NCBI RefSeq assembly: GCF_053078305.1
Contig: NZ_CP166879.1
DNA: 64,000 bases
Strand: one strand, 5' to 3'
Part shown: in pieces, positions 1 through 14,645 of the stretch
Layout of the letters: the number at the start of each line of letters is the position of its first letter
Position numbering within the stretch: the stretch's first letter is position 1
Made by a program: the position numbers and the translations under genes
The notes under the pieces: generated by a model
What the model was told of the DNA's origin: nothing
What the model saw: only the letters and a program-made list of their open reading frames with translations
The model's database searches: none

Positions 1-150
1 ACCCGTGGGGCCAATCAGTTTTACAGCGTCATGGAACGGCTGAAGATGCTCGATTCCCTGCAGGCAACACAGCTTCAGTCGGCCATTGTTAAAGCCATTT
101 ATGTCTATCATCTCCCCGTAGTTGTCCGCATCGTTCGCCAACTCCACTGA
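1..150 (+). CDS. B: phage portal protein (lambda gpB-like), upstream part; 5' partial at window edge and interrupted after codon at nt 96, then 18 foreign codons to a stop
   Basis: Frame 1 reads ...FYSVMERLKMLDSLQATQLQSAIVKA, continuous with MYAATIESELD at 11936; matches remembered lambda portal. Confidence 0.75.
   Translation, partial: TRGANQFYSVMERLKMLDSLQATQLQSAIVKAIYVYHLPVVVRIVRQLH
91..98. other. left junction core repeat AAAGCCAT (putative attL core; extended 12/13 match to nt 103)
   Basis: Identical 8-mer at 11930-11937 exactly where the portal reading frame is broken and resumed. Confidence 0.6.
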
Positions 151-227
151 AACCCTTGCTGCGGCTGGAATGTCGTTTTCCATACTTTTGATGACCGTTC
201 ATCACACTTCCAGGTTTTCGCGGTTTT

Positions 228-280
228 GTGTATTGCAATGTGTATTGCAAATTGGCGATCGGGATGGGTGTGTATTGCAA
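228..280 (+). repeat. three direct copies of GTGTATTGCAA upstream of int (putative arm-type recombinase binding sites)
   Basis: Copies at 228-238, 240-250, 270-280; two more copies at 11835-11857 near the right end. Confidence 0.55.
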
Positions 281-298
281 ATCTCTTGAGGGCTGTTA

Positions 299-1540
299 AT
301 GGCTATTGAAAACAAACTCAGTGACAAACTGTTAAAGAGTCTTGTCGGAAAACGGCAGGACAAACAAAAAACAATAGCGGATGGGCGCGGGTTGTCTGTG
401 CGTGTAAGCATGGTTGGGGGGATCAGCTTTGTTTTTTACTATCGTCTTGGTGGCAGGGAATCCCCTCCGGTATGGCTTACACTTGGGCGCTATCCTGATA
501 TGTCTCTTGCAACAGCCAGGCGCATGCGTGATCAGTGCCGTGAGTGGCTGGCTGAAAATCTGGACCCCCGCAGGCAAATAAAACTTGCCGCCGAAAAAAC
601 CATGCAACCAGTGACCGTAAGGGATGCGCTGTTTTACTGGTACGACAATCACGCCACAACAGCCAGAAAAGAGCATGAATATTTAATAAAACGATTTGAA
701 AAGCATATCTTCCCCTATATCGGTGATATGGCTATAGAACAGTGCAAATTACACACATGGCTTGCCGTCTTTGACAGGATCAAAAAAAATGCGCCTGTTA
801 TGTCTGGTGCAATTTTTCTTGATATCAAACAGGCGTTGCGTTTTTGTCGCGTCAGGCAATACATCGCGTGCGATCCCTTTGGCGATATTAACGTAAGTTA
901 TGTCGGGCGCTCATCCGGTATAAGGGATCGCGTTCTTAATATCAATGAAACAGCGGATGTATGGTCTTATGCTTACGGTAATAATTTGCTGACACTGTCA
1001 TCAATACATAACAGAAGAATAATGGTTATCTGCCTGGTGTTTGGTTGCCGTCAGCAGGAGGCGAGGTTATCCACATGGGACGAATGGGATTTAAAAAACT
1101 GGGTATGGACAGTCCCAAAAGAGCACAGCAAAAACAAGGAGGCCATAGTAAGGCCTGTTCCTGACGGCATAAAACAATGGCTCGTTAATCTTTACGCAGA
1201 AACAAAAAATCGCGGTTATGTTGTCGGTTGTGCTTTGCAAAGGGCGACAATAACAGGGGCTGCAAACAGAATATGCAGGCGTCTTGGTCATGATATTAAT
1301 GGCTTGTGGTGCATACATGATTTCAGGCGCACATTTTCCACTGCGCTTAATGATATGGGGGCGGATCCTTATATTGTCGAACTTCTTTTAGGTCATAAAG
1401 TGAAAGGGGTTGCCGGTGTTTACAATAAAAGCAGGCATATAAAGAAAAAACTTGAGGTGCTTAATATGTGGGTTAATTACCTTAATACGATAGCAGGATT
1501 TAACAACAACGTTATCGAGCTTAATAAAGAGGTGGTGTGA
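299..1540 (+). CDS. int: tyrosine-type site-specific integrase (P4-like family)
   Basis: 413 aa; N-terminal arm-binding-like region, C-terminal HDFRRT...LLGH...GVAGVY catalytic motifs; position at element end. Confidence 0.85.
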   Translation: MAIENKLSDKLLKSLVGKRQDKQKTIADGRGLSVRVSMVGGISFVFYYRLGGRESPPVWLTLGRYPDMSLATARRMRDQCREWLAENLDPRRQIKLAAEKTMQPVTVRDALFYWYDNHATTARKEHEYLIKRFEKHIFPYIGDMAIEQCKLHTWLAVFDRIKKNAPVMSGAIFLDIKQALRFCRVRQYIACDPFGDINVSYVGRSSGIRDRVLNINETADVWSYAYGNNLLTLSSIHNRRIMVICLVFGCRQQEARLSTWDEWDLKNWVWTVPKEHSKNKEAIVRPVPDGIKQWLVNLYAETKNRGYVVGCALQRATITGAANRICRRLGHDINGLWCIHDFRRTFSTALNDMGADPYIVELLLGHKVKGVAGVYNKSRHIKKKLEVLNMWVNYLNTIAGFNNNVIELNKEVV

Positions 1541-1541
1541 T

Positions 1542-1799
1542 ATGGCAATTTATTCTCTTGTTGATGAAAACGATTTGCGCACAATGAAGGACATTGATCG
1601 GTTCATTCGTGAAAAAGAGTGCATAGCACTTACCACGCTGGCAAACTCAACACGCTGGAAAATGGAGCAGGCAGGTAAATTCCCGCGACGTATCAAGATC
1701 GGTGAACGTGCGGCAGGGTATCGACTTTCAGAGGTTCAGGCATGGATCCGTGGTGAGTGGCATCCTGGATGGAAACCTGGAAAAACAAAACAGCAATAA
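1542..1799 (+). CDS. alpA: AlpA-family phage transcriptional regulator / excisionase-like HTH protein
   Basis: 85 aa, overlaps int stop, pattern typical of AlpA (CP4-57 regulatory protein) family. Confidence 0.7.
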   Translation: MAIYSLVDENDLRTMKDIDRFIREKECIALTTLANSTRWKMEQAGKFPRRIKIGERAAGYRLSEVQAWIRGEWHPGWKPGKTKQQ

Positions 1800-1853
1800 C
1801 CAGTAAATAACGCCCCTCATCAAGAGGGGTTTTTGTCTATAGGGTAAAACGCG

Positions 1854-2432
1854 ATGAATAAAAATATTGCCGTGACGGGCAAGGGGTACGCTCGTCCAGT
1901 GAAAAAATTCTGTGATATTCGTGATCTTGTCGTTCTGCGCTTTGATGGTGTGAGCGTTCGCGTGGTGTATGTGAACGGCGATCCGTGGTTTGTTGCCGTT
2001 GACGTGTGCGCTGCGCTGGAAATTGTTGATCACAAGGTTGCGTTACGCCGTCTCGATGATGATGAAAAGGGGGAGTGTTTAATACCCACCCCAGGTGGAA
2101 ATCAAACAATGCGAACGGTATGCGAGTCAGGGTTCTACAAACTAATCGCCAGAAGTCGGAAAGCTGTTACTCCTGGCACGTTCGCCCGTCGTTTCAGTAA
2201 CTGGGTATTCAGAAATGTGATACCAGGTATCAGAAAAACGGGGGCTTATGGTATCCCGTGGGGGGCATTACAGGATTTTTCCCGCCGTAAAGAGCAATAT
2301 CAAATAAGTGCCAGCGAGAAGGGGAGGGAGCTACAGGCATGTAAGCGCAAAAAACGTGAACTGGAGGAAGAAGAAAAAAGGCTGATACGTGAATATCAGC
2401 CTGAGTTTTACTTTGGTGAGCGTATTCAGTAA
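1854..2432 (+). CDS. Bro-N domain protein (phage antirepressor-like)
   Basis: 192 aa; N-terminal FDGVSVRVVYVNGDPWFVAVDVCAALEI resembles Bro-N/antirepressor domain. Confidence 0.55.
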   Translation: MNKNIAVTGKGYARPVKKFCDIRDLVVLRFDGVSVRVVYVNGDPWFVAVDVCAALEIVDHKVALRRLDDDEKGECLIPTPGGNQTMRTVCESGFYKLIARSRKAVTPGTFARRFSNWVFRNVIPGIRKTGAYGIPWGALQDFSRRKEQYQISASEKGRELQACKRKKRELEEEEKRLIREYQPEFYFGERIQ

Positions 2433-2770
2433 CCACACGCGGTGCTGATTATACGGTACATCGTGTTAACCGAGAAGCTACCCACCAGCAAGGCAAAATC
2501 TTCTGCTAAAAAATGACATATGGCCAGTCGTCCGGAAAGCATGAAATTTTACAAAAATGGAAAATGAAGATTTTTATTGTGCTGGTGGGTAAAAACAAAA
2601 AGCGCCCCGTTGCCGGAGCGCCCTTGTGAACAATTAACCTGCTGCGAAAAAATTGGATCAGTGCAGGGAAATTATATCAACTGTGTGAAGAAGCGCCACA
2701 ATTGCCAGTTTAGCTTTGCGGCGAACGCGTCAATAAAGAATATTCTTTCTTTAAATTCTGTTTGTGTATT

Positions 2771-2800
2771 TTTTCGTAGTTTTTCGTAGTTTTTCGTAAG
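2771..2800. repeat. tandem repeat TTTTTCGTAG x3
   Basis: Three perfect 10-bp units in the intergenic gap between convergent genes. Confidence 0.6.
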
Positions 2801-2895
2801 GAGAAAGAGCGGCGCGTATGCACCGCTAAGGAGTTTATTTTCATGACTTATGCAGCTTTCAATCTTAGCACCGCCGTAGCTGGTGGACAAGGCTA

Positions 2896-3123
2896 TCAGC
2901 CAGGCGGTCGGTTTTTAGTGGCTTTTAACCGCCGTGGGTATTTCTCGACAAAATCTTCAAGGGCAAATTTTTCTGGTGGCACTAAGCGCGGCGCTGGTGG
3001 TGGTATTTTTGTTCTGGTTAGTTCTTCCTCAAGTCTGGCGCAGGCTTCTAACTGCCTTTGCCGGATGATTTCATCATCTTGCGTTTGCGTGTCTTGTATT
3101 GGTGATAGTGTGTTGTTGGTCAT
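2896..3123 (-). CDS. hypothetical protein
   Basis: 75-aa ORF co-directional with RHH gene; preferred over overlapping low-complexity + strand ORF. Confidence 0.35.
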   Translation of the reverse strand: MTNNTLSPIQDTQTQDDEIIRQRQLEACARLEEELTRTKIPPPAPRLVPPEKFALEDFVEKYPRRLKATKNRPPG

Positions 3124-3180
3124 GATACTGCCCTGTAAAGCAATGCGCCGGAGTACCTCACGCCACGGCGCTGATAGTGA

Positions 3181-3486
3181 TTATTCTGATTCTTGGGTCT
3201 TGCGACGCTGGAGTTCTTCGCGTGCAACGGTGACAAGTTGCCCGATTTCTTCCGCTGCTTTGATGCCGATTTGTTCGACCTTAGCCAGAGCATCCAGTGA
3301 AGACACAAGGGGATTTTCTCCGCTGCCTTCTGCCTGGCGGCGGGCGATTTCACCGCGCATGGCGGTTACTATGAATCCGGCGTTGCTTTCACCGTCCAGT
3401 TTTACGGATTCCATGCCTTCAATAACATCATGCGGGATCCGAGCTGTCAGTGATTGTGATTTTGCGTTTTTTGAACCTGTAGCCAT
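3181..3486 (-). CDS. ribbon-helix-helix (CopG/Arc-like) DNA-binding protein, putative element repressor
   Basis: SLTARIPHDVIEGMESV beta-strand/helix pattern; ATG at 3486 with GAGAGGA RBS; divergent from rightward operon. Confidence 0.5.
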   Translation of the reverse strand: MATGSKNAKSQSLTARIPHDVIEGMESVKLDGESNAGFIVTAMRGEIARRQAEGSGENPLVSSLDALAKVEQIGIKAAEEIGQLVTVAREELQRRKTQESE

Positions 3487-3700
3487 CTGTAATCCTCTCA
3501 ATGAAAGTGTAAGACAATATACACATAAAAAGTCTTACATAAAAGCATTGACATGTAAGCCACCTATAAATAAAGTTACTTACACCTTGTTAATGCAAGG
3601 TGCAGAAACGACGAAACCCGGCAGTGCGCTAACACTAACCGGGCTTCTAACCACCAACGATAGAAAGCGTATCGAGGTAGCTATGAGAAATCATACCACA
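3487..3700. promoter_or_regulatory. divergent promoter/operator region with repeated TGTAAGACA / GTCTTACAT / ACATGTAAG motifs
   Basis: AT-rich intergenic region between leftward RHH gene and rightward operon, repeated half-sites. Confidence 0.45.
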
Positions 3701-4045
3701 CACCCGCAAGGGCGGGACTCGCACAACCTGAATAAATACATCTGGCGTTTTCTGGCCCGAAAAAACCAGTTGATCGCCAGTGTCGAAAATAGCTATGATT
3801 CCCGCGCACCTCATAAAACGGGTGCCGGGATTGGCGTCCTGGGCAAAACTGAAGCGCATAACACGCGCCCCGCGTGTTTTTTTGTGCCGCATAGTCACAC
3901 CTTATCAATGGTGGGCTGTACGGGGGCGGAGCAATCCGCGCCGGTTTCTTCAGTGTCCGGTTACGCCAACCCTGTACAGTCCGCCACCAGCGAAATTGGC
4001 GTTTCCGGTGGCGGTTATCTTAACCACACTGAGGAGGCTGCCAAC

Positions 4046-4237
4046 ATGGCTACTATCCCTACCCTTGTACATTCTCAAACCGCCTTTCTCTGGCGCTTTA
4101 TCATCTTTGGCGCGTCAGACCATCAAATCATCCACGTCACCGCCTGGACGGAACGCGAAGCGCGTAGCCGTTGCCCGTCCGGTTGTGTTGCTGTATTCGC
4201 CGCCCGTATTCGTCAGGAGGTGTGCCATGTGCAATAA
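4046..4237 (+). CDS. Icd-like small protein (P4 cell-division-inhibitor family), tentative
   Basis: 63 aa, GAGGAGG RBS at 4031-4037; resembles remembered Icd-like proteins of P4-type elements. Confidence 0.4.
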   Translation: MATIPTLVHSQTAFLWRFIIFGASDHQIIHVTAWTEREARSRCPSGCVAVFAARIRQEVCHVQ

Positions 4238-4484
4238 AACCACACCGGACGCAGCCGCCGCGCTCACTACACTGATGCACGCGCTGATTGATATTTCTGT
4301 TATTGCTGACAGGGCGCATAAGCACGCCACCAGTGAAACAGAATATGCCGGGGCTTTCGTTCCTCATTCGCTGGCGGTTATGCAACTTAGTGCTGATATG
4401 GCGCTGAATGAGGCCAAAGCTATCCTGATTTCTGATTGTGAAAATGGGGGGGGGTTATGCGTGATGATCGTTTTAATGCCCTGA
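4227..4484 (+). CDS. hypothetical protein
   Basis: ATG overlapping previous stop, CAGGAGG RBS; operon context. Confidence 0.45.
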   Translation: MCNKTTPDAAAALTTLMHALIDISVIADRAHKHATSETEYAGAFVPHSLAVMQLSADMALNEAKAILISDCENGGGLCVMIVLMP

Positions 4485-4678
4485 AACAGGAGTTTGATGG
4501 TGCGCCTGATGATGCAGGTGATGCGCTTTCGTCAATATCCGAACTGATAAGAGTGGCCTTTTTCTTACTTGGCACGAAAGAATATAAATCAACTGGAATA
4601 GACGTACTGAATATTACTGCTGATTATGCGGAATATATGGCAGAAGTGGATTTAAGAAAGATAACGGACAGGGGGTAA
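4457..4678 (+). CDS. hypothetical protein
   Basis: 73 aa, G-rich RBS upstream, overlaps previous gene end. Confidence 0.45.
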   Translation: MRDDRFNALKQEFDGAPDDAGDALSSISELIRVAFFLLGTKEYKSTGIDVLNITADYAEYMAEVDLRKITDRG

Positions 4679-4679
4679 T

Positions 4680-4913
4680 ATGCGTGATATTTACCACGAA
4701 ACAATAGACCGCGCATTTAGTGCCCTTGCTTACGCTGAAGGTATGTACGAAATATTGCAAATGTGTCTGGAAACATTTGGCGATAATGAGCGTGATGTAA
4801 AGAAGGCGCGGATTATTAAATCACTGATAACTCTCCTTGAACCTGTAATAACAGAGTTGCAGGAAATAGACTTATTGCACGACAGATATAACGAACAGCA
4901 CACCGGAGAATAA
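4680..4913 (+). CDS. hypothetical protein
   Basis: 77 aa, AGGGGG RBS, tightly packed operon. Confidence 0.45.
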   Translation: MRDIYHETIDRAFSALAYAEGMYEILQMCLETFGDNERDVKKARIIKSLITLLEPVITELQEIDLLHDRYNEQHTGE

Positions 4914-4918
4914 AAATA

Positions 4919-5218
4919 ATGAAACTTAAATATCCTGGCTTAACTGCCAGTGGCAACACTCACCCTAAATTTACGCGCGGTGATATTTACCGCGACCAGT
5001 ACGGCGGCACGGTAATGATTAAGGGCGTGGCGGGACGGTGCGTAACTTACCGCCGTGAAGGCTACGAATATGATTGCGTGATGCCTGTTTATCAGTTCCG
5101 GCGTGATTTTTCTCTGGTACAGACCGCGCCGCATAACGTGCCCACCAGCAACGCCAGGGCACGGGCAAACATCCAGAAGCTGAAAACCATGATTAACGGA
5201 TTCAGGGGTAAAAAATGA
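4919..5218 (+). CDS. hypothetical protein
   Basis: 99 aa, GGAG RBS, stop overlaps next start. Confidence 0.45.
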   Translation: MKLKYPGLTASGNTHPKFTRGDIYRDQYGGTVMIKGVAGRCVTYRREGYEYDCVMPVYQFRRDFSLVQTAPHNVPTSNARARANIQKLKTMINGFRGKK

Positions 5219-6624
5219 AACTGGCACCGAACGTAAAACGATTACCGAAAGATAAATACACCGAAGCGGTTATTTTTGCGGGTATTGATGCTCACTCATT
5301 CGCAGAGCATTACATCATTGCACAGGCCAAAAAAGCAGGCGATCCAGTCCCTCCCGTTTATCTGGGGCGTTATCAGTTAAGCGAACTGGATAACCTCCAG
5401 ATTGTTGATGATGGGCGATACAGGGCGACGGTGATACGCGCCGGAAATATTGAAGAGCCGCAGCTGTTAACCATCGCCACGAAACTGGCGAGCGCCGGAG
5501 TCCAGGAGGCGCGGCTACTTTCTGAAAATTTCGAATTGCTGGAGGAATGGAGCGACCAGCTTCCACGGCTTAGGGAGGCATGGGAACGCGGGGAAAGCCT
5601 GGTCATGAAAAAAATTCCCCAGCGAAAAACCACGCTACCGATGAGCGTTGGATCTACCGGATACGACACACAGCTTGATTACGTGGTAAAGGGGATTATT
5701 CCGGCATCGTCGCTTTGCAGCATATACGGGGCGAGCGGTTCCTATAAATCATTCCTTGCCGGATCGTGGGCGTGTCACGTTTCCACGGGCCGCCAGTGGG
5801 GAGGCCGCAGGGTGGCGCATGGCGCTGTTCTCTATGTGGTTGGTGAAGGCGGTATCGGCGTTCCGCGTCGTGTAAAAGCCTGGGAGGTTGTGCACGGTGA
5901 GCAGGTGAAAAATCTGTATCTGGTAAACCGTCCCATCTTTCCGGCTGTCCCGCTTGATGTTGATGAACTGGTTATTGCTGCCAGTCAGGTGGAGAGGGAA
6001 ACGGGTAAACCTGTTCGCATGATTATTCTGGACACGCTGGCGCGTTGCTTTGGCGGCAATGATGAAAATGACTCCCGCGACATGGGGGCATTTATCCGTG
6101 GTTGTGACGAGCTTAAACGGCGCACAGGGGCTACGGTGCTGGTGGTTCACCATTCCGGCAAGGATGAAACAAAGGGGGCGCGTGGTTCCAGTGCATTTCG
6201 TGCATCACTGGACGCTGAATACCGGATACGCAGGGAGGACGCAGGAAGCGAAGCGCTGGTTATCTCATGCACCAAAATGAAGGACGCGGAGGAACTCAAA
6301 GAGGCTGCCTATGATTTGCGGGTGGTGGAGCTTTTTACCGACGCTGACGGGGAGTTAATTACGTCGCTGGTGGTGGTGGATAAGCCGCGCCCTCCCGTTG
6401 AACTGGAGCGCATCGAGGAGGCAGGCAACAAGACGGAAAACCATACCGCGCTATGGGGGTGCATCCGTTCACGCACACAGAACGGCGACAAGTGCACGAT
6501 CCCGCTGTTACGTGACGATATGAAAAAGCTGGGGTATGACACAAAACACCTTAAACGATGGTTAGCCAAACTGGAAAAAGACGACGTGATCTACATTGAC
6601 GGTGATGATGTAGGACCACTGTAA
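5215..6624 (+). CDS. replication initiation protein, RecA-like ATPase (AAA_25/RepA-type) with C-terminal DNA-binding domain
   Basis: 469 aa; Walker A-like GASGSYKS, Walker B MIILD, LVVHHSGKD motif; iterons immediately downstream. Confidence 0.7.
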   Translation: MKLAPNVKRLPKDKYTEAVIFAGIDAHSFAEHYIIAQAKKAGDPVPPVYLGRYQLSELDNLQIVDDGRYRATVIRAGNIEEPQLLTIATKLASAGVQEARLLSENFELLEEWSDQLPRLREAWERGESLVMKKIPQRKTTLPMSVGSTGYDTQLDYVVKGIIPASSLCSIYGASGSYKSFLAGSWACHVSTGRQWGGRRVAHGAVLYVVGEGGIGVPRRVKAWEVVHGEQVKNLYLVNRPIFPAVPLDVDELVIAASQVERETGKPVRMIILDTLARCFGGNDENDSRDMGAFIRGCDELKRRTGATVLVVHHSGKDETKGARGSSAFRASLDAEYRIRREDAGSEALVISCTKMKDAEELKEAAYDLRVVELFTDADGELITSLVVVDKPRPPVELERIEEAGNKTENHTALWGCIRSRTQNGDKCTIPLLRDDMKKLGYDTKHLKRWLAKLEKDDVIYIDGDDVGPL

Positions 6625-6830
6625 AAAGTGGGCATTAAAAGTGGGAAAGGTGGGCGATTTAACGTAATTTTAACAAAATCACCCACTTTCCCACGTGTAT
6701 ATATCCCAAAAAGTGGGCACTAAAAAAATACCTATGAAACAAGATGATATAAATCCCAAACTTCCCACGTTGGACGAAGTGGGAAAACGTAAAAAGTGGG
6801 CGAAAAAAGTGGGTAGAGGTGGGCGAATGA
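6625..6830. repeat. iteron array, putative replication origin of the satellite
   Basis: About ten copies of AAGTGGG(C/A) / GGTGGGCGA in both orientations directly downstream of the rep gene. Confidence 0.7.
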
Positions 6831-7078
6831 CTCAAAAACACAGAGACAGAACAGAGCCAAAATATAAAGCGTTAGACATGACAGAGCACGCTTTAAAGGT
6901 GGCAATCAGGGTAATAGACCGCCACACGCGGGAAGGATACGCGAAGGAACATCCCGACCTGATAAGCGCATTCATGACCACAGCGGCGGCAAACTTTGCC
7001 ACGCTGACAGAACGGGAGATAGCCGAAGCGGAACAGGTAACAACCATCAACGTTAAAACCGGAGAGGTGGAATCATGA
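6827..7078 (+). CDS. hypothetical protein
   Basis: 83 aa from ATG at 6827 (upstream part of track ORF lies in the iterons). Confidence 0.45.
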   Translation: MTQKHRDRTEPKYKALDMTEHALKVAIRVIDRHTREGYAKEHPDLISAFMTTAAANFATLTEREIAEAEQVTTINVKTGEVES

Positions 7079-7485
7079 CAGCACAGATAGCCGCTTACGG
7101 GCGGCTGGTGGACGACCCGCAGGTAAAACAAACCAGCAAGGGCACACCGATGACGCTGGCGCGTATGGCGGTATCTCTGCCATGCAGCCAGGCACAGGAC
7201 GGGCAGGCTACGTTATGGCTATCAGTGATGGCATTTGGTAAGCAGGCCGACTTCCTGGCTAAACATCAAAAAGGCGATGTTGCCAGCGTATCCGGCACGA
7301 TGCAGGTAAGCCAGTGGACCAGACAGAACGGGGAAACGCGGCAGGGTTATCAGGTTATTGCAGACAGTGTAATCAGTGCCCGTGCTGCCCGTCCTGGCGG
7401 GAGCAGACGTACAACCACAGGCACACAGGGTAATCAGCCACCAGCGGGAGGCGATGACCCTTACGGTGACGGTATTCCGTTCTGA
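7075..7485 (+). CDS. ssb: single-stranded DNA-binding protein
   Basis: OB-fold pattern and acidic C-terminal tail DDPYGDGIPF typical of SSB. Confidence 0.75.
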   Translation: MTAQIAAYGRLVDDPQVKQTSKGTPMTLARMAVSLPCSQAQDGQATLWLSVMAFGKQADFLAKHQKGDVASVSGTMQVSQWTRQNGETRQGYQVIADSVISARAARPGGSRRTTTGTQGNQPPAGGDDPYGDGIPF

Positions 7486-7495
7486 GGGGGTGACG

Positions 7496-7768
7496 ATGGT
7501 ACATGACCGCATAGCGGAGGAACTCGAGGCAAAAGGCTTTTACCGGAGGGCGGCGGCGCGATGGGGTGAAGTTATGCAGCTGGTGGAGACAGACAAGGAA
7601 CGGCATCAGGTTACGATGCGACGGCTGGAATGTTCCAGGAAGGCACAGAGGCCACCGGAGCCGCCGGATAACTTCGGAGACCTGAAAAAAGCAGTAGATC
7701 GCACTTATGCCGAAATGGGTATGGATGGTGTAAGCGATGAAATATGGCGTAATTACCCAGACAGCTAA
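7496..7768 (+). CDS. PerC-family transcriptional regulator
   Basis: 90 aa; IAEELEAKGFYRRAAARW motif resembles PerC family. Confidence 0.5.
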   Translation: MVHDRIAEELEAKGFYRRAAARWGEVMQLVETDKERHQVTMRRLECSRKAQRPPEPPDNFGDLKKAVDRTYAEMGMDGVSDEIWRNYPDS

Positions 7769-7774
7769 TCAACA

Positions 7775-7796
7775 GCCGGAGAAATCCGGCTTTTTT
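7775..7796 (+). terminator. rho-independent terminator (GCCGGAGAAATCCGGC + T-run)
   Basis: Perfect hairpin then TTTTTT; identical hairpin recurs at 10049-10071. Confidence 0.65.
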
Positions 7797-8007
7797 GTAC
7801 CCAAAAAAAGCCCGATAAGTACAGGAGGCATCTTATCGGGCTTTTGCATATGAGGTTTTTTTGGTGCACTGACACACATGATCGGGGTAATCATTTCATA
7901 ATTTGCAACACAACTCAACATCATTGCACAAAATGCAATCCTGATTATAATCAGAGCTGGATGAACATCCAGTTCTGATTTTTTAAGTCAAAGAGGAATT
8001 TCTTACT

Positions 8008-8214
8008 ATGGCTGAAGAGAAAAAAGGCGGTGTTTCGGTGTACATAAGCCCCGAAATCGTGGAGGTGCTCAAGCAGCGCCACAAAAAAAACTATGAGGCT
8101 GGCGTAGCGGCTGGACTGGATCCGCTGATGACGCCGGAGCCGTCGATAGGTTCACTTGTGCGCTCTTATTTACTTGCGGCGCTTGGGATGCATAAAAATT
8201 ATGGTGGTGAATAA
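8008..8214 (+). CDS. hypothetical protein
   Basis: 68 aa, AAGAGG RBS, first gene of capsid operon. Confidence 0.45.
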   Translation: MAEEKKGGVSVYISPEIVEVLKQRHKKNYEAGVAAGLDPLMTPEPSIGSLVRSYLLAALGMHKNYGGE

Positions 8215-9269
8215 TGACAGTAAAAGCAATGGCACTTACAACTAACCAGCTTTTCGCGTACCTGAATCGCGGGGATATTGCAGAATTTAAATTCAGTCCG
8301 CTGTTTACCACGCTGTTTTTCCCGAACGTGGCGACCTTCAACACCCAGAACATCATGCTGGACACCCTGGACATTGAAGAGGTTACGATGTCAGCGTTCT
8401 GTTCGCCTATGGTGGGTAGTCAGGTCCAGCGCGATAAAGGGTACGAAACCAGCACGATTAAACCAGGCTACATGAAACCCAAACACGAAATCGATCCAAC
8501 AAAAACCATCATGCGCATGGCTGGAGAAGATCCGGCACAGCTTAACGACCCTACCTACCGCCGTATGCGCCTGATTACTGGCAACATGCGCCGCCAGATA
8601 AACGCCATTAAAGCGCGCGTGGAATGGCTGGCGGTGAATGCGATAACGACCGGAAAAAACATCATTGAGGGCGAAGGCATAGAACGCTATGAAATCGACT
8701 GGAAAATACCGGAAAACTGCATCATAGAGCAGGCCAAGGGTAAAAAATGGTCCGAGCATGATAAAGATATTTACGATCCAATCTATGACATCGAACTATA
8801 CGCAGATCAGGCAGGTTGCCCCGCCAACGTCATGATTATGGGCGCTGAGGTATGGCGCACGTTACGCAGCTTTAAAAAATTCCGCGAACTGTACGATCTT
8901 TCCCGTGGTTCAGAATCCGCCGCAGAACTGGCCTGTAAAAACCTGGGTGAAGTAGTGAGCTTTAAAGGCTATCTGGGCGATATTGCCCTTATCGTCTATT
9001 CCGGCAAATACACTGACAGCGACGGTACCGAAAAATATTTCCTTGAGCCTGATTTGCTGGTCCTGGGTAACACCAACAATAAAGGGCTGGTGGCCTATGG
9101 TGCGATTATGGATCAGGAAGCGGTAAGAACGGGCGCAACGCAAAACATGTTCTACCCGAAAAACTGGATTGAAGACGGCGATCCGGCGATTGAGTACGTT
9201 CAGACGCACAGCGCACCGCAGCCGGTACCGGCAGATATTCGCAAATTTGTTACCGTCAAAATTGCTTAA
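8214..9269 (+). CDS. major capsid protein, lambda gpE-like paralog encoded by the satellite
   Basis: 351 aa; clear similarity to helper E at 14646-15674 (PGYVKPKHE, EDPAQLNDP, VVSFKGY, VLGNT motifs). Confidence 0.85.
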   Translation: MTVKAMALTTNQLFAYLNRGDIAEFKFSPLFTTLFFPNVATFNTQNIMLDTLDIEEVTMSAFCSPMVGSQVQRDKGYETSTIKPGYMKPKHEIDPTKTIMRMAGEDPAQLNDPTYRRMRLITGNMRRQINAIKARVEWLAVNAITTGKNIIEGEGIERYEIDWKIPENCIIEQAKGKKWSEHDKDIYDPIYDIELYADQAGCPANVMIMGAEVWRTLRSFKKFRELYDLSRGSESAAELACKNLGEVVSFKGYLGDIALIVYSGKYTDSDGTEKYFLEPDLLVLGNTNNKGLVAYGAIMDQEAVRTGATQNMFYPKNWIEDGDPAIEYVQTHSAPQPVPADIRKFVTVKIA

Positions 9270-9280
9270 CGGGGGATTCT

Positions 9281-9616
9281 ATGGACACTCCATACATTGA
9301 GTTATTTGCAGGCAGTCAGCAGGTATCCACGACGCTGGTACATTTTGCCGCTGATGCTGGCGTTATTCAGGAATTTACCCCGCTGATGCTGGCGGACAAT
9401 GGCGAGTTTAAGCCGTGGGATGGTCAGGAATCTGGCAAGGCTGTTTATCTGACCTCGTACCCCGTGGACACGTCAAAGCAGAAATCAGCACAGTGTTACA
9501 AGACGGGGATATTTAATATCGCCGCCGTAAACTGGCCTGAGAGCGCCGACACTGACGCGAAAAAATGCGCCGCCTTTGCGGGTTCTGGCGTATCCGTTCA
9601 GCCGCTGGCGCGATAA
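9281..9616 (+). CDS. head decoration protein, lambda gpD-like paralog
   Basis: 111 aa; TPLMLA...WDGQ...YKSG/TGIF...WPES...AFAG pattern shared with helper D at 14241-14588. Confidence 0.75.
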   Translation: MDTPYIELFAGSQQVSTTLVHFAADAGVIQEFTPLMLADNGEFKPWDGQESGKAVYLTSYPVDTSKQKSAQCYKTGIFNIAAVNWPESADTDAKKCAAFAGSGVSVQPLAR

Positions 9617-9628
9617 GCAGGGGAAACG

Positions 9629-10042
9629 ATGGCAACGAATGAAAGCATCATGGCGCTACCGCTGGCGAGTAAATTTAAAGCAGAAGCGCGGGCAATGGCT
9701 GACAGAGGTTTATCAACCTACGAGGCCGTATATCAACTCAACAAACTGGAAGAGCAGGACAAGCCGCGCGCTGATGCGATTATGGCGCTTCATGAACATA
9801 ACGACTATCAGCCGCTGTTACGTGCAATGGCAAACGTGCCATGTATTAGCGTCGATAATGCTCGTGAAATCCTGAACATGACCATAGAGCAGGAGCGCCC
9901 AAAGGTTGCGCCGGAGCTTACCGCAGCCTTTGAAAACTTTATGGACATGCACAGCCCGAAAGCCGTATCACCCGGCATGGCATACGACGGCAGAAACCAG
10001 GGCGATGAAGGCGACGTCGATCGCATACTGAAAACCATCTGA
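9629..10042 (+). CDS. scaffold protein, Nu3-like (scaffold domain only, no protease domain)
   Basis: 137 aa; C-terminus AAFENFMDMHSPKAV...DEGDVD parallels helper C/Nu3 C-terminus ALFEHFMANHSPAAV...ADGDAD. Confidence 0.65.
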   Translation: MATNESIMALPLASKFKAEARAMADRGLSTYEAVYQLNKLEEQDKPRADAIMALHEHNDYQPLLRAMANVPCISVDNAREILNMTIEQERPKVAPELTAAFENFMDMHSPKAVSPGMAYDGRNQGDEGDVDRILKTI

Positions 10043-10048
10043 CATAAG

Positions 10049-10071
10049 GCCGGAGAAATCCGGCTTTTTTT
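10049..10071 (+). terminator. rho-independent terminator after capsid operon
   Basis: GCCGGAGAAATCCGGC hairpin followed by TTTTTTT. Confidence 0.65.
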
Positions 10072-10130
10072 ACGGGTCCTTTCCGGCATATGGACCCGTT
10101 ACGGGGCGGCGACCTCGCGGTTTTTCGCTA
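10072..10130 (+). other. cos site 1 (cosN GGGCGGCGACCT at 10104-10115 with cosQ-like and cosB-like flanks), rightward orientation
   Basis: Exact lambda 12-nt cohesive-end sequence and lambda-like flanks ACGGGTCCTTTCCGG...CGCGGTTTTTCGCTATTTATGA. Confidence 0.8.
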
Positions 10131-10248
10131 TTTATGAGCTTTTTTCGGGTGCTGGTGGTGGTTTTGTTGTTCGCTCTATCTCTATGAATAAAAAGGGAAA
10201 GATAAAACCAATACACCAACCTGAAACATTACTTAAGTGGGGATATTG

Positions 10249-10791
10249 ATGAAATCGCACCTGATGAACAAAAAAAACATGGCGCAAAGCTGCCGTGTAA
10301 GTGCGACAGCGTTCGACAAGTGGGGAGTGACTCCCGTTGAACGTAAAGGACGCGAGGCTTTTTACGATGTTGCCAGCGTGATAGACAATCGGGTAAGCAA
10401 TGCAATTAACCAGGTTACAAACGACAAAGGCGAGATTGATGATGATGAACTCTTACGAGTCAGGATCAGATTACTGACCGCCCAGGCTGAGGCGCAGGAA
10501 CTTAAAAACGAGCGCGATCGCGGTGACGTAATTGATACTGAGTTTTGCCTGTACGCGCTTTCAAAGCTGGCGAGTCAGATTTCTTCAATCATGGACAGTT
10601 TGCCGCTTACCATGCAAAGGCGCTTCCCGCAGATTACTCCCGCTATGCTGGATGGGCTTAAAAGGGAAGTGGTTAAAGCCTGTAATGCCAGTGCCACAGT
10701 TGCCGACAACCTCCCGAAGATACTGGCTGATTACCTGATGGAAACTACCGGAGACGTACCGGAGAAGTTGCTACAGAAGAAAGGCGAGTAA
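10249..10791 (+). CDS. terminase small subunit, lambda Nu1-like
   Basis: LTAQAEAQELKNERDRGDVIDTEFCLYALSKLASQISSIMDSLPLTMQRRFP parallels remembered lambda Nu1; start uncertain (10237/10249/10264). Confidence 0.75.
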   Translation: MKSHLMNKKNMAQSCRVSATAFDKWGVTPVERKGREAFYDVASVIDNRVSNAINQVTNDKGEIDDDELLRVRIRLLTAQAEAQELKNERDRGDVIDTEFCLYALSKLASQISSIMDSLPLTMQRRFPQITPAMLDGLKREVVKACNASATVADNLPKILADYLMETTGDVPEKLLQKKGE

Positions 10792-10962
10792 CAGACGCGC
10801 AATTATTGAACAAAAGTAAGGCCCGACATGAAATCACCCAAAAATGCCTTTTTCATGCGTTTGTATGTCTGACCTTTTACGGTTTCGATATTATAAAAAA
10901 CAAATAGTTACGCTCGAGAGGTACCGACACGCATTTTTCAGGAAAATTTTCATAAACAGATA

Positions 10963-11015
10963 AAAACCGCGAGGTCGCCGCCCCGTAACGGGCCATAATT
11001 CCAGGAAGGACCCGA
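10963..11015 (-). other. cos site 2 (cosN reverse complement at 10972-10983), inverted relative to cos site 1
   Basis: AGGTCGCCGCCC plus lambda-like flanks on the minus strand. Confidence 0.75.
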
Positions 11016-11047
11016 CGACACCAGGCTATCAGAACGATGAGGGCACA

Positions 11048-11329
11048 ATGACAGAAGCCGAACTACTGGGATTAATCCGCTACGTTACCGGAATCAGCCA
11101 GCAGCATGACGAACAGGCCACGCAGCCGGACAGCGTGACCGCTGAAAATTATGCGCGTGTTGTTGCTGAGGTGATGCGCCGTGATGGTATCCAGCTTAAT
11201 GATGCAGATATGCGCGACATACGGATCCGCGTTCTTGAAATGCTGGCCTACCGTCGCCGCGTGCAGACGTACAGGGAAAAAGCAAAAATAACGTACCAGT
11301 GGAAGAAGCCGGAGCGATTACGGCGGTAA
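11048..11329 (+). CDS. hypothetical protein
   Basis: 93-aa ORF, last gene before the right junction. Confidence 0.4.
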   Translation: MTEAELLGLIRYVTGISQQHDEQATQPDSVTAENYARVVAEVMRRDGIQLNDADMRDIRIRVLEMLAYRRRVQTYREKAKITYQWKKPERLRR

Positions 11330-11834
11330 CTTGCTGATATTCCCGATAACGCAAAATTGCGCTCTGTCCTAACCCGTTGATATTTTCGGGAACAGCCAAC
11401 GGCTGAGGCCGGAACAACGATTATCTTTCAGATAGTCAGAGCTACGAAATTTTCGTAGTTTAATTACTCGCCAGTTTATCGTTAACTCGTTGATATTTTC
11501 GGTAACCTCAATTTGAGGAGATCGGAAACATAACCCTTCACATTCTGAATGGTTATAATGACCACTCAGACCATCAAGGCAACCATAACGAACATCGTTA
11601 CGGTTGGAGCTTTTACCCCACTGGGGGGAAGGTGCACATCTGGATCATCATTACCGTGATCAAGGGTATGTAAAACCCACCAGCCTGATTAACTGTTAAC
11701 CGGAAAAAAGCCAGGTAGCCAATCTCGATATGGGGATCCCCATATCGACATTAACGCCCCCTAGAACTGCGCATATCTGCATATAAAAACATCCACCAGC
11801 TTTATGACGGATGCCGCTCATCTGATAAATAATC

Positions 11835-11857
11835 GTGTATTGCAATGTGTATTGCGA
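11835..11857 (+). repeat. two direct copies of GTGTATTGCAA/GTGTATTGCGA near right end (arm-type sites)
   Basis: Same motif as the triplet at 228-280. Confidence 0.55.
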
Positions 11858-11929
11858 CTCCTTTAAACGATAGGTTTGAGCATTCGTAATGTACTGTTTT
11901 TAAATTTTATTTTTTCCTGTCTTTTCATA

Positions 11930-11937
11930 AAAGCCAT
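11930..11937. other. right junction core repeat AAAGCCAT (putative attR core)
   Basis: Identical to 91-98; portal frame resumes here. Confidence 0.6.
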
Positions 11938-12709
11938 GTATGCAGCGACGATTGAAAGTGAACTTGATACCGAAAAGGCCTTTGAATATATCGCCGGTGC
12001 GCCGCAGGGGCAGAAGGATAATCCGCTTATTAATATTCTGGATAAGTTCTCCACCTGGTATGACACGAATATCGTGACGCTGGGCGGTGTCAAAATTCCG
12101 CACCTTTTCCCCGGTGATGATCTGAAACTTCAGACCGCGCAGGATTCAGACAATGGATTTTCGGCGCTTGAACAGGCGCTGCTGCGGTATATCGCCGCCG
12201 GTCTTGGCGTTTCCTACGAACAGTTGTCCCGTGATTACTCGAAGGTCAGTTATTCAAGTGCCCGCGCCTCCGCCAATGAGTCGTGGCGCTATTTTATGGG
12301 ACGACGAAAATTTATTGCAGCCCGGCTGGCCACGCAGATGTTTTCCTGCTGGCTGGAAGAGGCACTTCTTCGGGGGATTATCCGTCCGCCACGGGCACGT
12401 TTTGATTTTTATCAGGCGCGTTCAGCCTGGTCGCGGGCAGAGTGGATTGGCGCAGGAAGAATGGCCATTGACGGGCTCAAGGAGGTCCAGGAATCAGTGA
12501 TGCGCATTGAGGCCGGACTGAGCACGTATGAGAAAGAGCTGGCGCTGATGGGTGAGGATTATCAGGACATTTTCCGCCAGCAGGTCAGGGAATCCGCAGA
12601 GCGGGAAAAAGCCGGACTCTCACGTCCGGTGTGGATAGCGCAGGCGTATCAGCAGCAGATAGCAGAGAGCCGCAGGCCGGAAGAGGAGACAACACCACGT
12701 GAGACGTAA
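11930..12709 (+). CDS. B: phage portal protein (lambda gpB-like), downstream part resuming after the insertion
   Basis: KAMYAATIESELD...YIAAGLGVSYEQLSR...MAIDGLKEVQE resembles remembered lambda portal C-terminal half. Confidence 0.8.
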   Translation, partial: KAMYAATIESELDTEKAFEYIAGAPQGQKDNPLINILDKFSTWYDTNIVTLGGVKIPHLFPGDDLKLQTAQDSDNGFSALEQALLRYIAAGLGVSYEQLSRDYSKVSYSSARASANESWRYFMGRRKFIAARLATQMFSCWLEEALLRGIIRPPRARFDFYQARSAWSRAEWIGAGRMAIDGLKEVQESVMRIEAGLSTYEKELALMGEDYQDIFRQQVRESAEREKAGLSRPVWIAQAYQQQIAESRRPEEETTPRET

Positions 12710-14204: not shown

Positions 14205-14240
14205 AGTCAGTGCTGACCATCAATATGAGGTTTTTACAAT

Positions 14241-14588
14241 ATGGTAACGAAAACCATCACTGAACAACGTGCGGAAGTACGTATTTTTGCCGGTAATGAT
14301 CCGGCTCATACCGCCACAGGCAGCAGCGGGATTTCTCAGGCAACACCGGCACTGACGCCCCTGATGCTGGATGAAGCCAGCGGGAAACTGGTGGTCTGGG
14401 ACGGACAGAAAGCCGGTAATGCGGCTGGCATACTGGTACTGCCGCTTGAAGGCACAGAGACGGTGCTGACGTATTACAAGTCGGGGACCTTTGCGACGGA
14501 GGCAATCCGCTGGCCTGAAAGTGTGGATGAACACAAAAAGGCCAACGCCTTTGTCGGCACAGCCCTGAGTCACGCGGCGCTGCCGTAA
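14241..14588 (+). CDS. D: head decoration protein gpD
   Basis: 115 aa; close to remembered lambda D (DPAHTATG, TPLMLD, YKSGTF, WPE). Confidence 0.85.
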   Translation: MVTKTITEQRAEVRIFAGNDPAHTATGSSGISQATPALTPLMLDEASGKLVVWDGQKAGNAAGILVLPLEGTETVLTYYKSGTFATEAIRWPESVDEHKKANAFVGTALSHAALP

Positions 14589-14645
14589 CACGTTATCAGG
14601 CCACCGCGTTGGCCTGACTGATTTCTGAATGAAAGGAACTGATTT

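What the first reader, a model, noticed from the sequence alone, without database searches (positions are those of the whole stretch)
3487..4045. Long untranslated leader with repeated half-sites between the RHH regulator and the Icd-like ORF
About 560 bp separate the leftward RHH gene from the first convincing rightward start, with repeated TGTAAGACA/GTCTTACAT/ACATGTAAG motifs. The overlapping 464-aa + strand ORF is low-complexity and implausible. In P4-type elements the equivalent leader encodes an RNA-based immunity system, so this region may hold operators for the RHH protein, a regulatory RNA, or both.
Basis: inference. Interest (0 to 1): 0.45.

Follow-up and report, generated by a model that had tools for sequence, protein, structure and literature searches.

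The report
Satellite control region with three regulatory RNAs
The 559-bp gap is the early control region of a phage satellite: repressor binding sites at two back-to-back promoters, a P1/P4-type immunity RNA pair that is already known, and a conserved antisense RNA that RNA databases do not list.

Summary
Window 3487-4045 is the early control region of a PICI-type satellite embedded in a lambdoid portal gene. It has three layers.

1. Promoters and operators (3507-3585). Two divergent promoters carry four GTGTAAGACAC-like 11-mers. At equivalent positions in relatives, the centre of this motif changes together with the N-terminal sequence of the adjacent YlcI/YnfO protein. These are very probably its operators.

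2. Antisense RNA (minus strand, 3684 to about 3604). This is a roughly 80-nt, two-hairpin RNA with a terminator, lying opposite the ribosome site and start codon of a remnant icd-like gene. It folds far better than the plus strand in 83 of 83 homologues and shows compensatory changes. It matches no Rfam family. No transcript data were available.

3. Immunity cassette. An isrK/seqA-type RNA (3806-3882) is followed by a C4/CI-type antisense RNA (3904-3991). The C4 loops pair with sites inside isrK and over the ribosome site of the complete icd-like gene (ATG 4046). Loops and targets co-vary across 26 cassette variants. The same models hit P4's cI locus.

C4/isrK hits in Gram-negative PICIs are already published. 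The main finding is therefore a new member of a known kind. The antisense RNA and operator co-variation are the possibly new parts.

The parts
3181..3486 (-). YlcI/YnfO-family gene (101 aa), the probable ribbon-helix-helix-type repressor transcribed leftward.
3507..3517 (.). Operator-like site O1 (GTGTAAGACAA). It abuts or overlaps the -10 and the predicted start of the leftward promoter.
   Evidence: In relatives a site lies 45-46 bp upstream of O2, and its sequence tracks the protein type.
3516..3521 (-). Probable -10 (TATATT on the minus strand) of the leftward promoter for the YlcI/YnfO gene.
   Evidence: The block CA[AG]TATACAC next to O1 is conserved across most protein types, while the operators themselves differ. 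Function is inferred.
3530..3540 (.). Extra inverted operator-like copy (AAGTCTTACAT). It forms an 8/8 inverted repeat with O1.
   Evidence: Inverted repeat I14, 3508-3515 / 3532-3539, 100% complementary. Present only in the window-type control region.
3548..3576 (+). Rightward promoter, TTGACA-17-TAAAGT. The predicted start is near 3583.
   Evidence: Consensus scan, 10 of 12 matches. TTGAC and a -10-like hexamer are conserved in relatives.
3553..3563 (.). Operator-like site O2 (ATGTAAGCCAC), abutting the -35 hexamer.
   Evidence: In relatives an 11-mer of the form GTGnnnnnCAC follows TTGAC directly. Its centre co-varies with the protein type.
3575..3585 (.). Operator-like site O3 (GTTACTTACAC), overlapping the -10 hexamer and the predicted transcription start.
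   Evidence: In relatives it lies 22-25 bp (35 bp in one type) downstream of O2, in direct or inverted orientation, with 0-2 mismatches to O2.
3584..3601 (+). 5'-terminal stem-loop of the rightward transcript (ACCUUG-UUAAUG-CAAGGU).
   Evidence: MFE -8.6 kcal/mol, z = -2.6. A hairpin is kept in other control-region types with different stem sequences. Its function is inferred.
3604..3684 (-). Candidate cis-antisense RNA of about 80 nt. It has a 5' hairpin containing the anti-SD sequence, and a terminator hairpin (3647->3613) followed by a U-rich tail. It is complementary to the 5' UTR, the SD (3674-3677) and the edge of ATG 3683.
   Evidence: Minus-strand MFE is -36.5 kcal/mol (z = -5.8), against -20.5 for the plus strand. 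The minus strand is more stable in 83 of 83 distinct homologues, mean -37.0 against -22.9. Predicted pairs include 510 G-U cells and 0 A-C cells. 91.7% of cells are paired, against 35-51% when partners are slid. Seven pairs change on both sides, reached by 0 of 500 shuffles. My covariance model R1 scores 96.3 bits here. No Rfam family reaches threshold.
3690..3698 (-). Probable extended -10 promoter (TGgTATGAT on the minus strand) for the antisense RNA. The predicted start is at 3684-3682.
   Evidence: Read directly from the sequence. In homologues the hexamer varies mainly at its fourth position (TATGAT, TATAAT, TATTAT). There is no good -35. Function is inferred.
3683..3752 (+). Remnant 5' end of an icd-like gene (MRNHTTHPQGRDSHNLNKYIWRF). 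It reads on in frame through the RNA cassette into the second icd-like gene.
   Evidence: The first 23 codons are identical to the complete 66-aa icd-like genes of CD45, and nearly identical to those of CFT073. The sequences diverge after TGGCGTTTT.
3741..3751 (+). Left copy of the direct repeat TCTGGCG(T/C)TTT (the WRF codons). The right copy is at 4089-4099. The two copies bracket the 348-bp cassette.
   Evidence: Direct-repeat family D1. The alignment breakpoint falls here.
3770..3799 (+). Promoter of the isrK-type RNA, TTGATC-18-TATGAT.
   Evidence: Consensus scan. The predicted start coincides with the isrK model start at 3806. TATGAT or TATGCT is conserved at the head of nearly all 26 cassette variants.
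3806..3882 (+). isrK / P4 seqA-type small RNA. It carries targets a1 (3828-3837) and b1 (3848-3854) and ends in an intrinsic terminator (3860-3878 plus a U run).
   Evidence: Rfam RF01394, 66 bits against a gathering score of 50. Terminator scan. Complementarity to C4.
3904..3991 (+). C4 / P4 CI-type antisense RNA. Loop b' is at 3947-3956 and single-stranded a' at 3963-3972.
   Evidence: Rfam RF01695, 77.6 bits against a gathering score of 45. MFE -46.9 kcal/mol, z = -5.2, with b' in a hairpin loop.
3995..4035 (+). Downstream targets a2 (3995-4002, ATTGGCGT) and b2 (4026-4035, ACACTGAGGA). b2 overlaps the SD GAGGAGG at 4031-4037.
   Evidence: Inverted repeats I4 and I6. The predicted cis duplex is -39.6 kcal/mol. 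Three-way co-variation across cassette variants.
4046..4237 (+). Complete icd-like gene (63 aa), the first gene controlled by C4.
   Evidence: NCBIfam NF033153 phage_ICD_like, 58.2 bits against a cutoff of 25. RefSeq annotation of relatives agrees.

Best explanation
Window 3487-4045 is the early control region of a PICI-type phage satellite. It stacks three repression layers in front of the satellite's rightward operon (icd-like gene, then replication genes).

Layer 1, protein. The leftward YlcI/YnfO-family protein, probably ribbon-helix-helix, binds GTGTAAGACAC-like 11-bp sites. O2 and O3 flank the -10 of the rightward promoter and would shut it. O1 lies at the start of the protein's own promoter and would autoregulate it.

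Layer 2, cis-antisense RNA. An RNA of about 80 nt is made from an extended -10 promoter inside the first codons of the old icd-like gene and ends at its own terminator. It pairs with the 5' UTR, SD and start codon of the first rightward ORF. This would block translation, with probable knock-on degradation or Rho-dependent polarity.

Layer 3, P1/P4-type immunity cassette. The cassette recombined in at the conserved WRF codons of icd. Its own promoter makes a short isrK/seqA-type RNA that mostly terminates at 3878. Read-through yields the C4/CI-type RNA. The b' and a' elements of C4 pair with b2 and a2 over the ribosome site of the complete icd-like gene. This blocks translation and so causes premature termination of the operon. 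The short isrK RNA carries decoy sites a1 and b1 and can titrate C4, as IsrK does in Gifsy-1.

What is shown: the family identity of isrK and C4, all the complementarities, loop-target co-variation, antisense-strand structure and covariation, and operator-protein co-variation. What is inferred: binding, transcription starts, RNA processing, and the direction of each regulatory effect.
For: RNA cassette:
- C4 scores 77.6 bits and isrK 66 bits, both above gathering score.
- The same models hit P4 cI/seqA (74.9 and 60.8 bits) and a P1-like immI region (75.9 and 49.5 bits).
- C4 folds with b' in a hairpin loop, z = -5.2.
- b' (3947-3956) pairs with b2 (4026-4035) over the SD. a' pairs with a1 (3828-3837) and a2 (3996-4002).
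- Across 26 distinct cassettes the a cores (TTGGCG, TTAGCC, TTAGGAC, TTAGCAG, TTGACAG) and the b cores (ACTGAAG, TAACGAAG, GTCAAAGG, GTTACAGG and others) change together at all three sites.
- Cis duplexes average -33.8 and -29.6 kcal/mol, against -25.3 and -20.7 in trans.
- The Gifsy-1 experiments show the isrK promoter, partial read-through of its terminator, a processed ~80-nt downstream RNA, and trans-activation by IsrK (PMC4825925).

Antisense RNA: detailed under parts.

Operators:
- Three sites have fixed geometry, with O1 at -45/-46 and O3 mostly at +22 to +25 relative to O2.
- Their centres differ between protein types. The best cis mismatch averages 1.35, against 3.2 in trans.

Mosaic origin: alignment with CFT073 and CD45 and the flanking direct repeat.
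Against: - No transcript, binding or genetic data exist for this element.
- The antisense promoter has no good -35.
- The antisense terminator's U tract is interrupted (UUUCGUCGUUUCU).
- Its conserved -10 also encodes conserved Asn-His codons, so coding constraint could explain that conservation.
- The window-type operators are more degenerate than in relatives, with 2-3 mismatches to GTGTAAGACAC.
- The isrK region alone does not fold better than shuffles (z = -0.45).
- Since the first icd-like gene is a remnant here, layer 2 may be vestigial in this particular element.
Confidence: 0.72

Rival explanations
1. The region encodes a protein. The ORF from ATG 3683 to 4237 (184 aa, or a shorter form from ATG 3908) is translated into a functional Ash-family protein fused to Icd. 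On this reading the nucleotide conservation reflects that protein.
For: Pfam Phage_ASH hits residues 38-131 at 63.1 bits against a cutoff of 26. RefSeq annotates 'ash family protein' in relatives. ATG 3683 has a good SD, and the frame stays open into icd. In Gifsy-1 the equivalent orf45 is translated, and its translation is needed for downstream expression (PMC4825925).
Against: The Phage_ASH match covers exactly the isrK + C4 + a2/b2 nucleotides (3794-4075). The same family hits the old P4 'cI gene product' ORF over the CI RNA, and from my own knowledge of the P4 literature the immunity factor there is the RNA. Variable columns show no codon periodicity, 40/35/42 for positions 1/2/3. Variation sits in blocks matching loops, targets and paired stems. 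RefSeq marks the relative's copy as an incomplete pseudogene. The Gifsy-1 authors report conserved nucleotides but variable amino acids for orf45.
Confidence: 0.08
2. The two hairpins at 3604-3684 act in the plus-strand mRNA, as a structured 5' UTR for stability, an RNase site or a translational switch. On this reading no antisense RNA is made.
For: The plus strand also forms two hairpins (-20.5 kcal/mol, z = -2.0). Watson-Crick covariation is strand-neutral. There is no transcript evidence for the minus strand, and the antisense promoter lacks a -35.
Against: The minus strand is about 14 kcal/mol more stable in 83 of 83 homologues. There are many G-U pairs on the minus strand, which would be A-C mismatches on the plus strand, and no A-C cells. 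The U-rich tract follows the hairpin only on the minus strand and is kept in all hairpin types. An extended -10 sits at the right distance.
Confidence: 0.15
3. The TGTAAG/CTTACA repeats are not sites for the adjacent YlcI/YnfO protein. They would instead bind another factor, such as AlpA, a helper-phage protein or a host nucleoid protein, or be promoter-architecture elements.
For: AlpA is the experimentally shown activator of Gram-negative PICI genes, and no PICI repressor is established (PMC6092414). There is no binding data. The RHH fold is not confirmed by sequence profiles.
Against: The motif's central bases change in step with the N-terminal segment of the adjacent protein across about ten types, while geometry and promoter hexamers stay fixed. 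This is the pattern expected of a cognate repressor-operator pair. L007, which has a different left-hand regulator, also has a different control region.
Confidence: 0.12

Closest known systems
P1/P7 immI system (c4 antisense RNA - icd - ant). Rfam C4, RF01695.
   Same: The order of elements matches: a1 b1, then C4 (b' a'), then a2 b2 over the ribosome site of icd, all on one strand within one transcript. A P1-like phage gives near-identical model scores. The first controlled gene is icd-like in both. As in P1 versus P7, specificity is carried by co-varying loop and target sequences.
   Different: Here the cassette sits in a PICI-type satellite, downstream of a separate repressor/operator region and an antisense RNA. 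No ant gene directly follows icd. The downstream genes are small ORFs, then DUF4222, a RepA-type helicase and SSB. RNase P processing and repression were not tested.
P4 immunity (CI RNA with seqA/seqC).
   Same: Rfam C4 hits P4 CI at 74.9 bits, and isrK hits the P4 seqA leader at 60.8 bits. These are the same two families in the same order as in the window. Both are satellite elements, and the RNA sits in the leader of the early or replication operon.
   Different: The window's element is not P4-like. A near-identical relative carries major capsid, decoration, connector and small terminase genes and a RepA helicase. The published view is that PICIs and P4 share only three distantly related proteins (PMC6092414). 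P4 has no YlcI/YnfO operator region, and my antisense-RNA model finds nothing in P4.
Gifsy-1 isrK-orf45-anrP locus (Salmonella).
   Same: An isrK RNA with its own promoter and a leaky terminator is followed by a conserved-nucleotide 'orf45' region that yields a ~80-nt processed RNA, followed by the regulated gene (PMC4825925). The window has an in-frame ATG at 3908, equivalent to the orf45 start.
   Different: The regulated gene is icd-like, not an antirepressor. The orf45-equivalent frame is fused to icd rather than ending at its start codon. The Gifsy-1 paper does not describe the orf45 region as a C4 RNA.
cis-antisense RNAs over a ribosome site: SymR/symE (type I toxin-antitoxin) and P22 sar/ant.
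   Same: A short, two-hairpin, terminator-ended RNA is transcribed from just inside the target ORF and covers its SD and start codon. The target, Icd-like, belongs to a family annotated as cell-division inhibitors, which is potentially toxic. The window copy resembles the SymR model weakly (32.8 bits, E = 0.0012).
   Different: The SymR score is well below gathering (61), and other variants of the RNA give no SymR hit. This is a mechanistic analogy, not family membership. No toxin-antitoxin behaviour has been shown.
Arc/Mnt-type ribbon-helix-helix repressors at divergent phage promoters (for example P22 immI).
   Same: A small protein is encoded divergently from the operon it would control. 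It has short repeated operators overlapping both promoters. A basic N-terminal segment is followed by two helices. Operator sequence tracks that N-terminal segment.

Membership tests
C4 antisense RNA (Rfam RF01695; P1 c4 / P4 CI) | Covariance-model score at or above the curated gathering score. | tested here: met
   77.6 bits against 45 at 3904-3991 +. P4 CI scores 74.9 and the P1-like phage 75.9 with the same model.
C4 antisense RNA (Rfam RF01695; P1 c4 / P4 CI) | Exposed a' and b' elements complementary to a2/b2 that overlap the ribosome site of the downstream gene. | tested here: met
   b' (3947-3956) pairs with b2 (4026-4035), which overlaps the SD at 4031-4037. a' (3963-3972) pairs with a2 (3996-4002). 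b' lies in a hairpin loop. The cis duplex is -39.6 kcal/mol.
C4 antisense RNA (Rfam RF01695; P1 c4 / P4 CI) | Upstream a1/b1 (seqA) copies in the same leader. | tested here: met
   a1 at 3828-3837 and b1 at 3848-3854, inside the isrK hit. Loops and both target sets co-vary across 26 cassettes.
C4 antisense RNA (Rfam RF01695; P1 c4 / P4 CI) | Processed from the leader transcript (RNase P) and acts in trans as an immunity repressor. | not testable with these tools
   Needs RNA end mapping and genetics.
isrK (RF01394) / c4-a1b1 (RF03163) | Covariance-model score at or above the gathering score. | tested here: met
   isrK scores 66 bits against 50. The overlapping c4-a1b1 model scores only 21.2 against 46.7 here, so membership is met for isrK only.
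isrK (RF01394) / c4-a1b1 (RF03163) | Own promoter and an intrinsic terminator giving a short RNA, with read-through into the downstream region. | tested here: inconclusive
   The promoter-like site at 3770-3799 predicts a start at the model's first base. A terminator lies at 3860-3878 plus a U run. These are in-silico results only.
P4-like satellite | P4 gene set (alpha primase-helicase, sid, psu, delta, epsilon). | tested here: not met
   The window has an AAA_25/RepA-type helicase, a Bro-N protein and a small terminase. A near-identical relative is annotated with major capsid, decoration, connector and small terminase genes. sid, psu and delta were not searched for specifically.
Gram-negative PICI / helper-embedded PICI | int-alpA at the left, a divergent control region, a replication module, then packaging genes. 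The element is about 10-15 kb and inserted at a specific site. | tested here: met
   Gene order. Window 1-103 and 11930-12400 are contiguous in the portal gene B of lambdoid phage PhiR12_2_star. This places an ~11.8-kb element inside a helper late gene, as described in PMC10111431.
SymR antitoxin RNA (RF01809) | Covariance-model score at or above the gathering score. | tested here: not met
   32.8 bits against 61 in the window. No hit at E <= 1 in five loci carrying other variants of the same RNA.
Ribbon-helix-helix repressor superfamily | Beta-alpha-alpha fold, detectable by profile or structure. | tested here: inconclusive
Pfam Phage_ASH (PF10554) | HMM score above the cutoff, and evidence that the sequence is a protein under selection. 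| tested here: inconclusive
   The HMM cutoff is met (63.1 against 26). However, the match coincides with the RNA cassette, shows no codon periodicity, and also falls on the P4 'cI' ORF over the CI RNA.

The most novel reading that the evidence does not exclude
Gram-negative PICIs may carry a so-far undescribed repression system at their divergent early promoters. It would consist of a YlcI/YnfO-type repressor with type-specific 11-bp operators, plus a conserved ~80-nt cis-antisense RNA over the ribosome site of the first rightward gene (icd-like). This would fill the gap left by the published statement that a global repressor in these elements is 'unclear'. On top of this, P1/P4-type isrK-C4-icd cassettes would behave as stackable immunity modules. 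They recombine at the WRF codons of icd, and some elements carry two in tandem with different specificities.
Probability: 0.45. Interest if true: 0.55.

Novelty: new member of a known kind. Interest (0 to 1): 0.4.

Why it matters
How Gram-negative PICIs are kept silent is not well understood. [quoted passage not shown] This window's control region, read together with about 120 relatives, gives three concrete and testable parts:
- a candidate repressor with its cognate operators;
- a candidate antisense RNA, whose control-region sequence is found in roughly a quarter of complete E. coli genomes and which is also present in Edwardsiella;
- a P1/P4-type immunity RNA cassette with many specificity variants.

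It also suggests that the 'ash family protein' annotation and Pfam Phage_ASH are largely a translation of that RNA cassette. That affects how thousands of prophage and satellite loci are annotated. The core RNA identification itself is routine and already published for PICIs (PMC10111431).

Tried and rejected
- SymR membership for the minus-strand RNA. The window copy is below threshold, and other variants give no hit. I kept it only as a mechanistic analogy.
- Sequence-profile proof of an RHH fold. Pfam, NCBIfam beyond YlcI_YnfO_N, and PDB phmmer/hmmsearch gave nothing meaningful.
- Structure prediction for the protein. Single-sequence AF2 of the whole protein was low-confidence at the N-terminus. 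Foldseek on the domain model gave only a noise hit.
- The Ash ORF as a real protein. Rejected as the main reading.
- Species-representative genome scan for the conserved 18-mer. Of 8 hits, 7 were chance matches in unrelated taxa. Only Edwardsiella hoshinae holds a true copy.
- Literature. Searches for the antisense RNA sequence, and for PICI plus antisense RNA or Icd-like, found nothing relevant. The original P1 c4 papers (PMC312442, PMC196329) are not held. P1 and P4 mechanistic details therefore rest on my own knowledge plus secondary citations.
- blastn alone for counting C4 cassettes. It under-counted, and iterated nhmmer was needed (17 versus 27 loci).

Full report
**Observation**

The gap is exactly as described. 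The leftward YlcI/YnfO-family gene starts at 3486, and the complete icd-like ORF starts at 4046 behind GAGGAGG. TGTAAG occurs 23 times in the 64-kb window, against 19.4 expected. Four copies lie within 77 bp (3508, 3534, 3554, 3579) in alternating orientation, which is far more than local chance allows. The 464-aa ORF exists. It is antisense to two leftward genes for about its first 215 codons, and it is real coding sequence only at its 3' end.

**Context**

The element has this gene order:
- integrase (299-1540) and AlpA-like gene (1542-1799);
- Bro-N protein (1854-2432);
- two leftward genes, then the control region;
- icd-like gene and small ORFs;
- DUF4222, RepA-type helicase (5215-6624) and SSB;
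- major capsid (8214-9269) and small terminase (10237-10791).

These assignments come, and from the annotation of a near-identical relative. This is a PICI-type satellite with its own capsid genes.

Window 1-103 and 11930-12400 are contiguous in the portal gene B of a lambdoid phage. The ~11.8-kb satellite is therefore embedded in a helper late gene, as described for helper-embedded PICIs (PMC10111431).

**The known RNAs**

Rfam gives C4 at 3904-3991 (77.6 bits, gathering score 45) and isrK at 3806-3882 (66 bits, gathering score 50). These are the only two gathering-level hits in the whole window.

C4 hits the CI RNA locus (8507->8420, 74.9 bits) and isrK hits the upstream seqA leader (8692->8615, 60.8 bits). 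A P1-like phage immI region gives 75.9 and 49.5 bits. The window's cassette therefore belongs to the same families as P1 c4 and P4 CI.

The anatomy matches the P1 scheme:
- A promoter-like site (3770-3799) predicts a start at the first base of isrK.
- isrK ends in a terminator at 3860-3878 plus a U run.
- C4 folds at -46.9 kcal/mol (z = -5.2), with b' in a hairpin loop and a' single-stranded.
- b' (3947-3956) pairs with b2 (4026-4035) across the SD of icd-like.
- a' (3963-3972) pairs with a1 (3828-3837) and a2 (3996-4002).

Across 26 distinct cassettes from related loci, loop and target sequences change together at all three sites. Cis duplexes are about 9 kcal/mol better than trans ones. This is strong comparative evidence for the RNA-RNA interactions and for many immunity specificities.

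The Gifsy-1 isrK-orf45-anrP work provides experimental precedent (PMC4825925). It showed the isrK promoter, a leaky terminator, a processed ~80-nt downstream RNA, and activation by short IsrK in trans. That C4 and isrK profiles hit Gram-negative PICIs is already published (PMC10111431).

**The mosaic**

In CFT073's PICI and in strain CD45, the YlcI/YnfO gene is followed after about 197 bp by a 66-aa icd-like gene. That gene starts at the equivalent of ATG 3683. The window is nearly identical to CD45 up to TGGCGTTTT (the WRF codons) and then switches to the isrK promoter.

The 348-bp cassette is bracketed by TCTGGCG(T/C)TTT at 3741-3751 and 4089-4099. The cassette therefore recombined into icd at the conserved WRF codons. 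Of 124 related loci, 27 carry a cassette and five carry two in tandem, each followed by an icd-like ORF.

**The antisense RNA**

The stretch between the rightward promoter and ATG 3683 is conserved in about 120 loci. It forms two hairpins that are much more stable on the minus strand:
- The window copy folds at -36.5 kcal/mol (z = -5.8) on the minus strand, against -20.5 on the plus strand.
- The mean across homologues is -37.0 against -22.9, with the minus strand more stable in 83 of 83.
- The predicted pairs contain 510 G-U cells and no A-C cells.
- On a 30-sequence alignment, 91.7% of cells pair, against 35-51% for slid controls.
- Seven pairs change on both sides, six of them in the terminator helix. 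None of 500 shuffles reached this.

The second hairpin is followed by a U-rich tract on the minus strand only. An extended -10 (TGgTATGAT, 3698->3690) sits at the right distance to start the RNA at 3684-3682. In homologues the hexamer varies mainly at its least critical position.

The RNA is complementary to the SD (3674-3677) and abuts the start codon. No Rfam family covers it. My covariance model finds one copy in the window, none in P4 or the P1-like phage, and a true copy in Edwardsiella hoshinae. Expression is inferred, not shown.

**The operators**

I grouped relatives by the N-terminal sequence of the left-hand protein. This reveals an 11-bp motif of the form GTGnnnnnCAC at three fixed positions:
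- O1 lies next to a conserved TATACAC block, the probable leftward -10.
- O2 abuts the -35 hexamer TTGAC.
- O3 lies between the -10 and the transcription start.

The motif's centre is type-specific (for example GTGTAAGACAC, GTGGGCCACAC, GTGTTCAACAC, GTGGCTGACAC, GTGTGTTTCAC) and tracks the protein's residues 9-20. The geometry is constant. O2 finds a better partner in its own control region (1.35 mismatches) than in others (3.2).

The window's sites are degenerate versions of GTGTAAGACAC, plus one extra inverted copy. The RHH fold is plausible but not proven.

**Rivals**

- A functional Ash protein is unlikely. The Pfam match equals the RNA cassette. There is no codon periodicity. The same family hits the obsolete P4 'cI protein' ORF over the CI RNA.
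- A plus-strand-only role for the hairpins is disfavoured by the G-U pattern and the position of the terminator.
- A different binding protein for the repeats is disfavoured by the protein-operator co-variation.

**Verdict**

The main content, a C4/isrK immunity cassette in a satellite leader, is a new member of a known and already reported kind. The conserved antisense RNA, the type-specific operators and the modular cassette architecture are the parts that may be new, and they are worth an experiment.

Noticed in passing
window 1-103 and 11930-12400 (element about 104-11929): The satellite is inserted inside portal gene B of a lambdoid prophage. The two flanks are contiguous in phage PhiR12_2_star (28254-28356 and 28344-28814), sharing a ~13-bp identity block. 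This makes it a helper-embedded PICI of the kind described in PMC10111431. The truncated portal, protease and major head genes follow at 11876-15674.
   Followed up: partly
window about 18184-53810: A Mu-like prophage appears to lie between the lambdoid head genes and the lambdoid tail tape-measure gene (58400-61012). It includes a transposase (18184-20292), large terminase (30348-32015), portal (32006-33604) and tape measure (41938-44013). The window would then hold three nested mobile elements.
   Followed up: no
window 3794-4075; L124 (P4) 8330-8521: Pfam Phage_ASH and the RefSeq name 'ash family protein' coincide exactly with the isrK + C4 + a2/b2 nucleotides. They also match the old P4 'cI gene product' ORF over the CI RNA, and show no codon-position bias. 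The family looks like a conceptual translation of a conserved RNA cassette.
   Followed up: partly
L007, L055, L064, L067, L077 (about +152 and +624 from the conserved 18-mer): Some relatives carry two isrK-C4 cassettes in tandem, each followed by its own icd-like ORF. The two have different a/b specificities. In L055, for example, they are TTAGGAC/GTTACAGG and TTAGCAG/AAATTGG.
   Followed up: partly
window 3181-3330 (C-terminal half of the YlcI/YnfO protein): Residues about 46-88 show weak similarity to helix-hairpin-helix DNA-binding motifs (Hef nuclease, DNA polymerase beta; E = 0.4-1.4). The CFT073 homologue is only 59 aa and lacks this half.
   Followed up: no
L126 2529-2611 (Edwardsiella hoshinae NBRC 105699): A full-scoring copy of the candidate antisense RNA (93 bits) occurs outside Escherichia. 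This is consistent with cross-genus spread of these satellites.
   Followed up: partly
window 3703-3716: A GC-rich hairpin (CCCGC-AAGG-GCGGG) lies within codons 7-12 of the remnant icd-like gene, just upstream of the antisense promoter on the minus strand. It is identical in close relatives, so covariation gives no information.
   Followed up: no
L007 2780-3052 (-): Some relatives keep the antisense RNA and cassette but replace the YlcI/YnfO gene and its operators with a different small Arc-like regulator (MRISPELKEQFDKEAQSDGISLANWLKELG...). This suggests that the repressor/operator unit is exchanged as one module.
   Followed up: no
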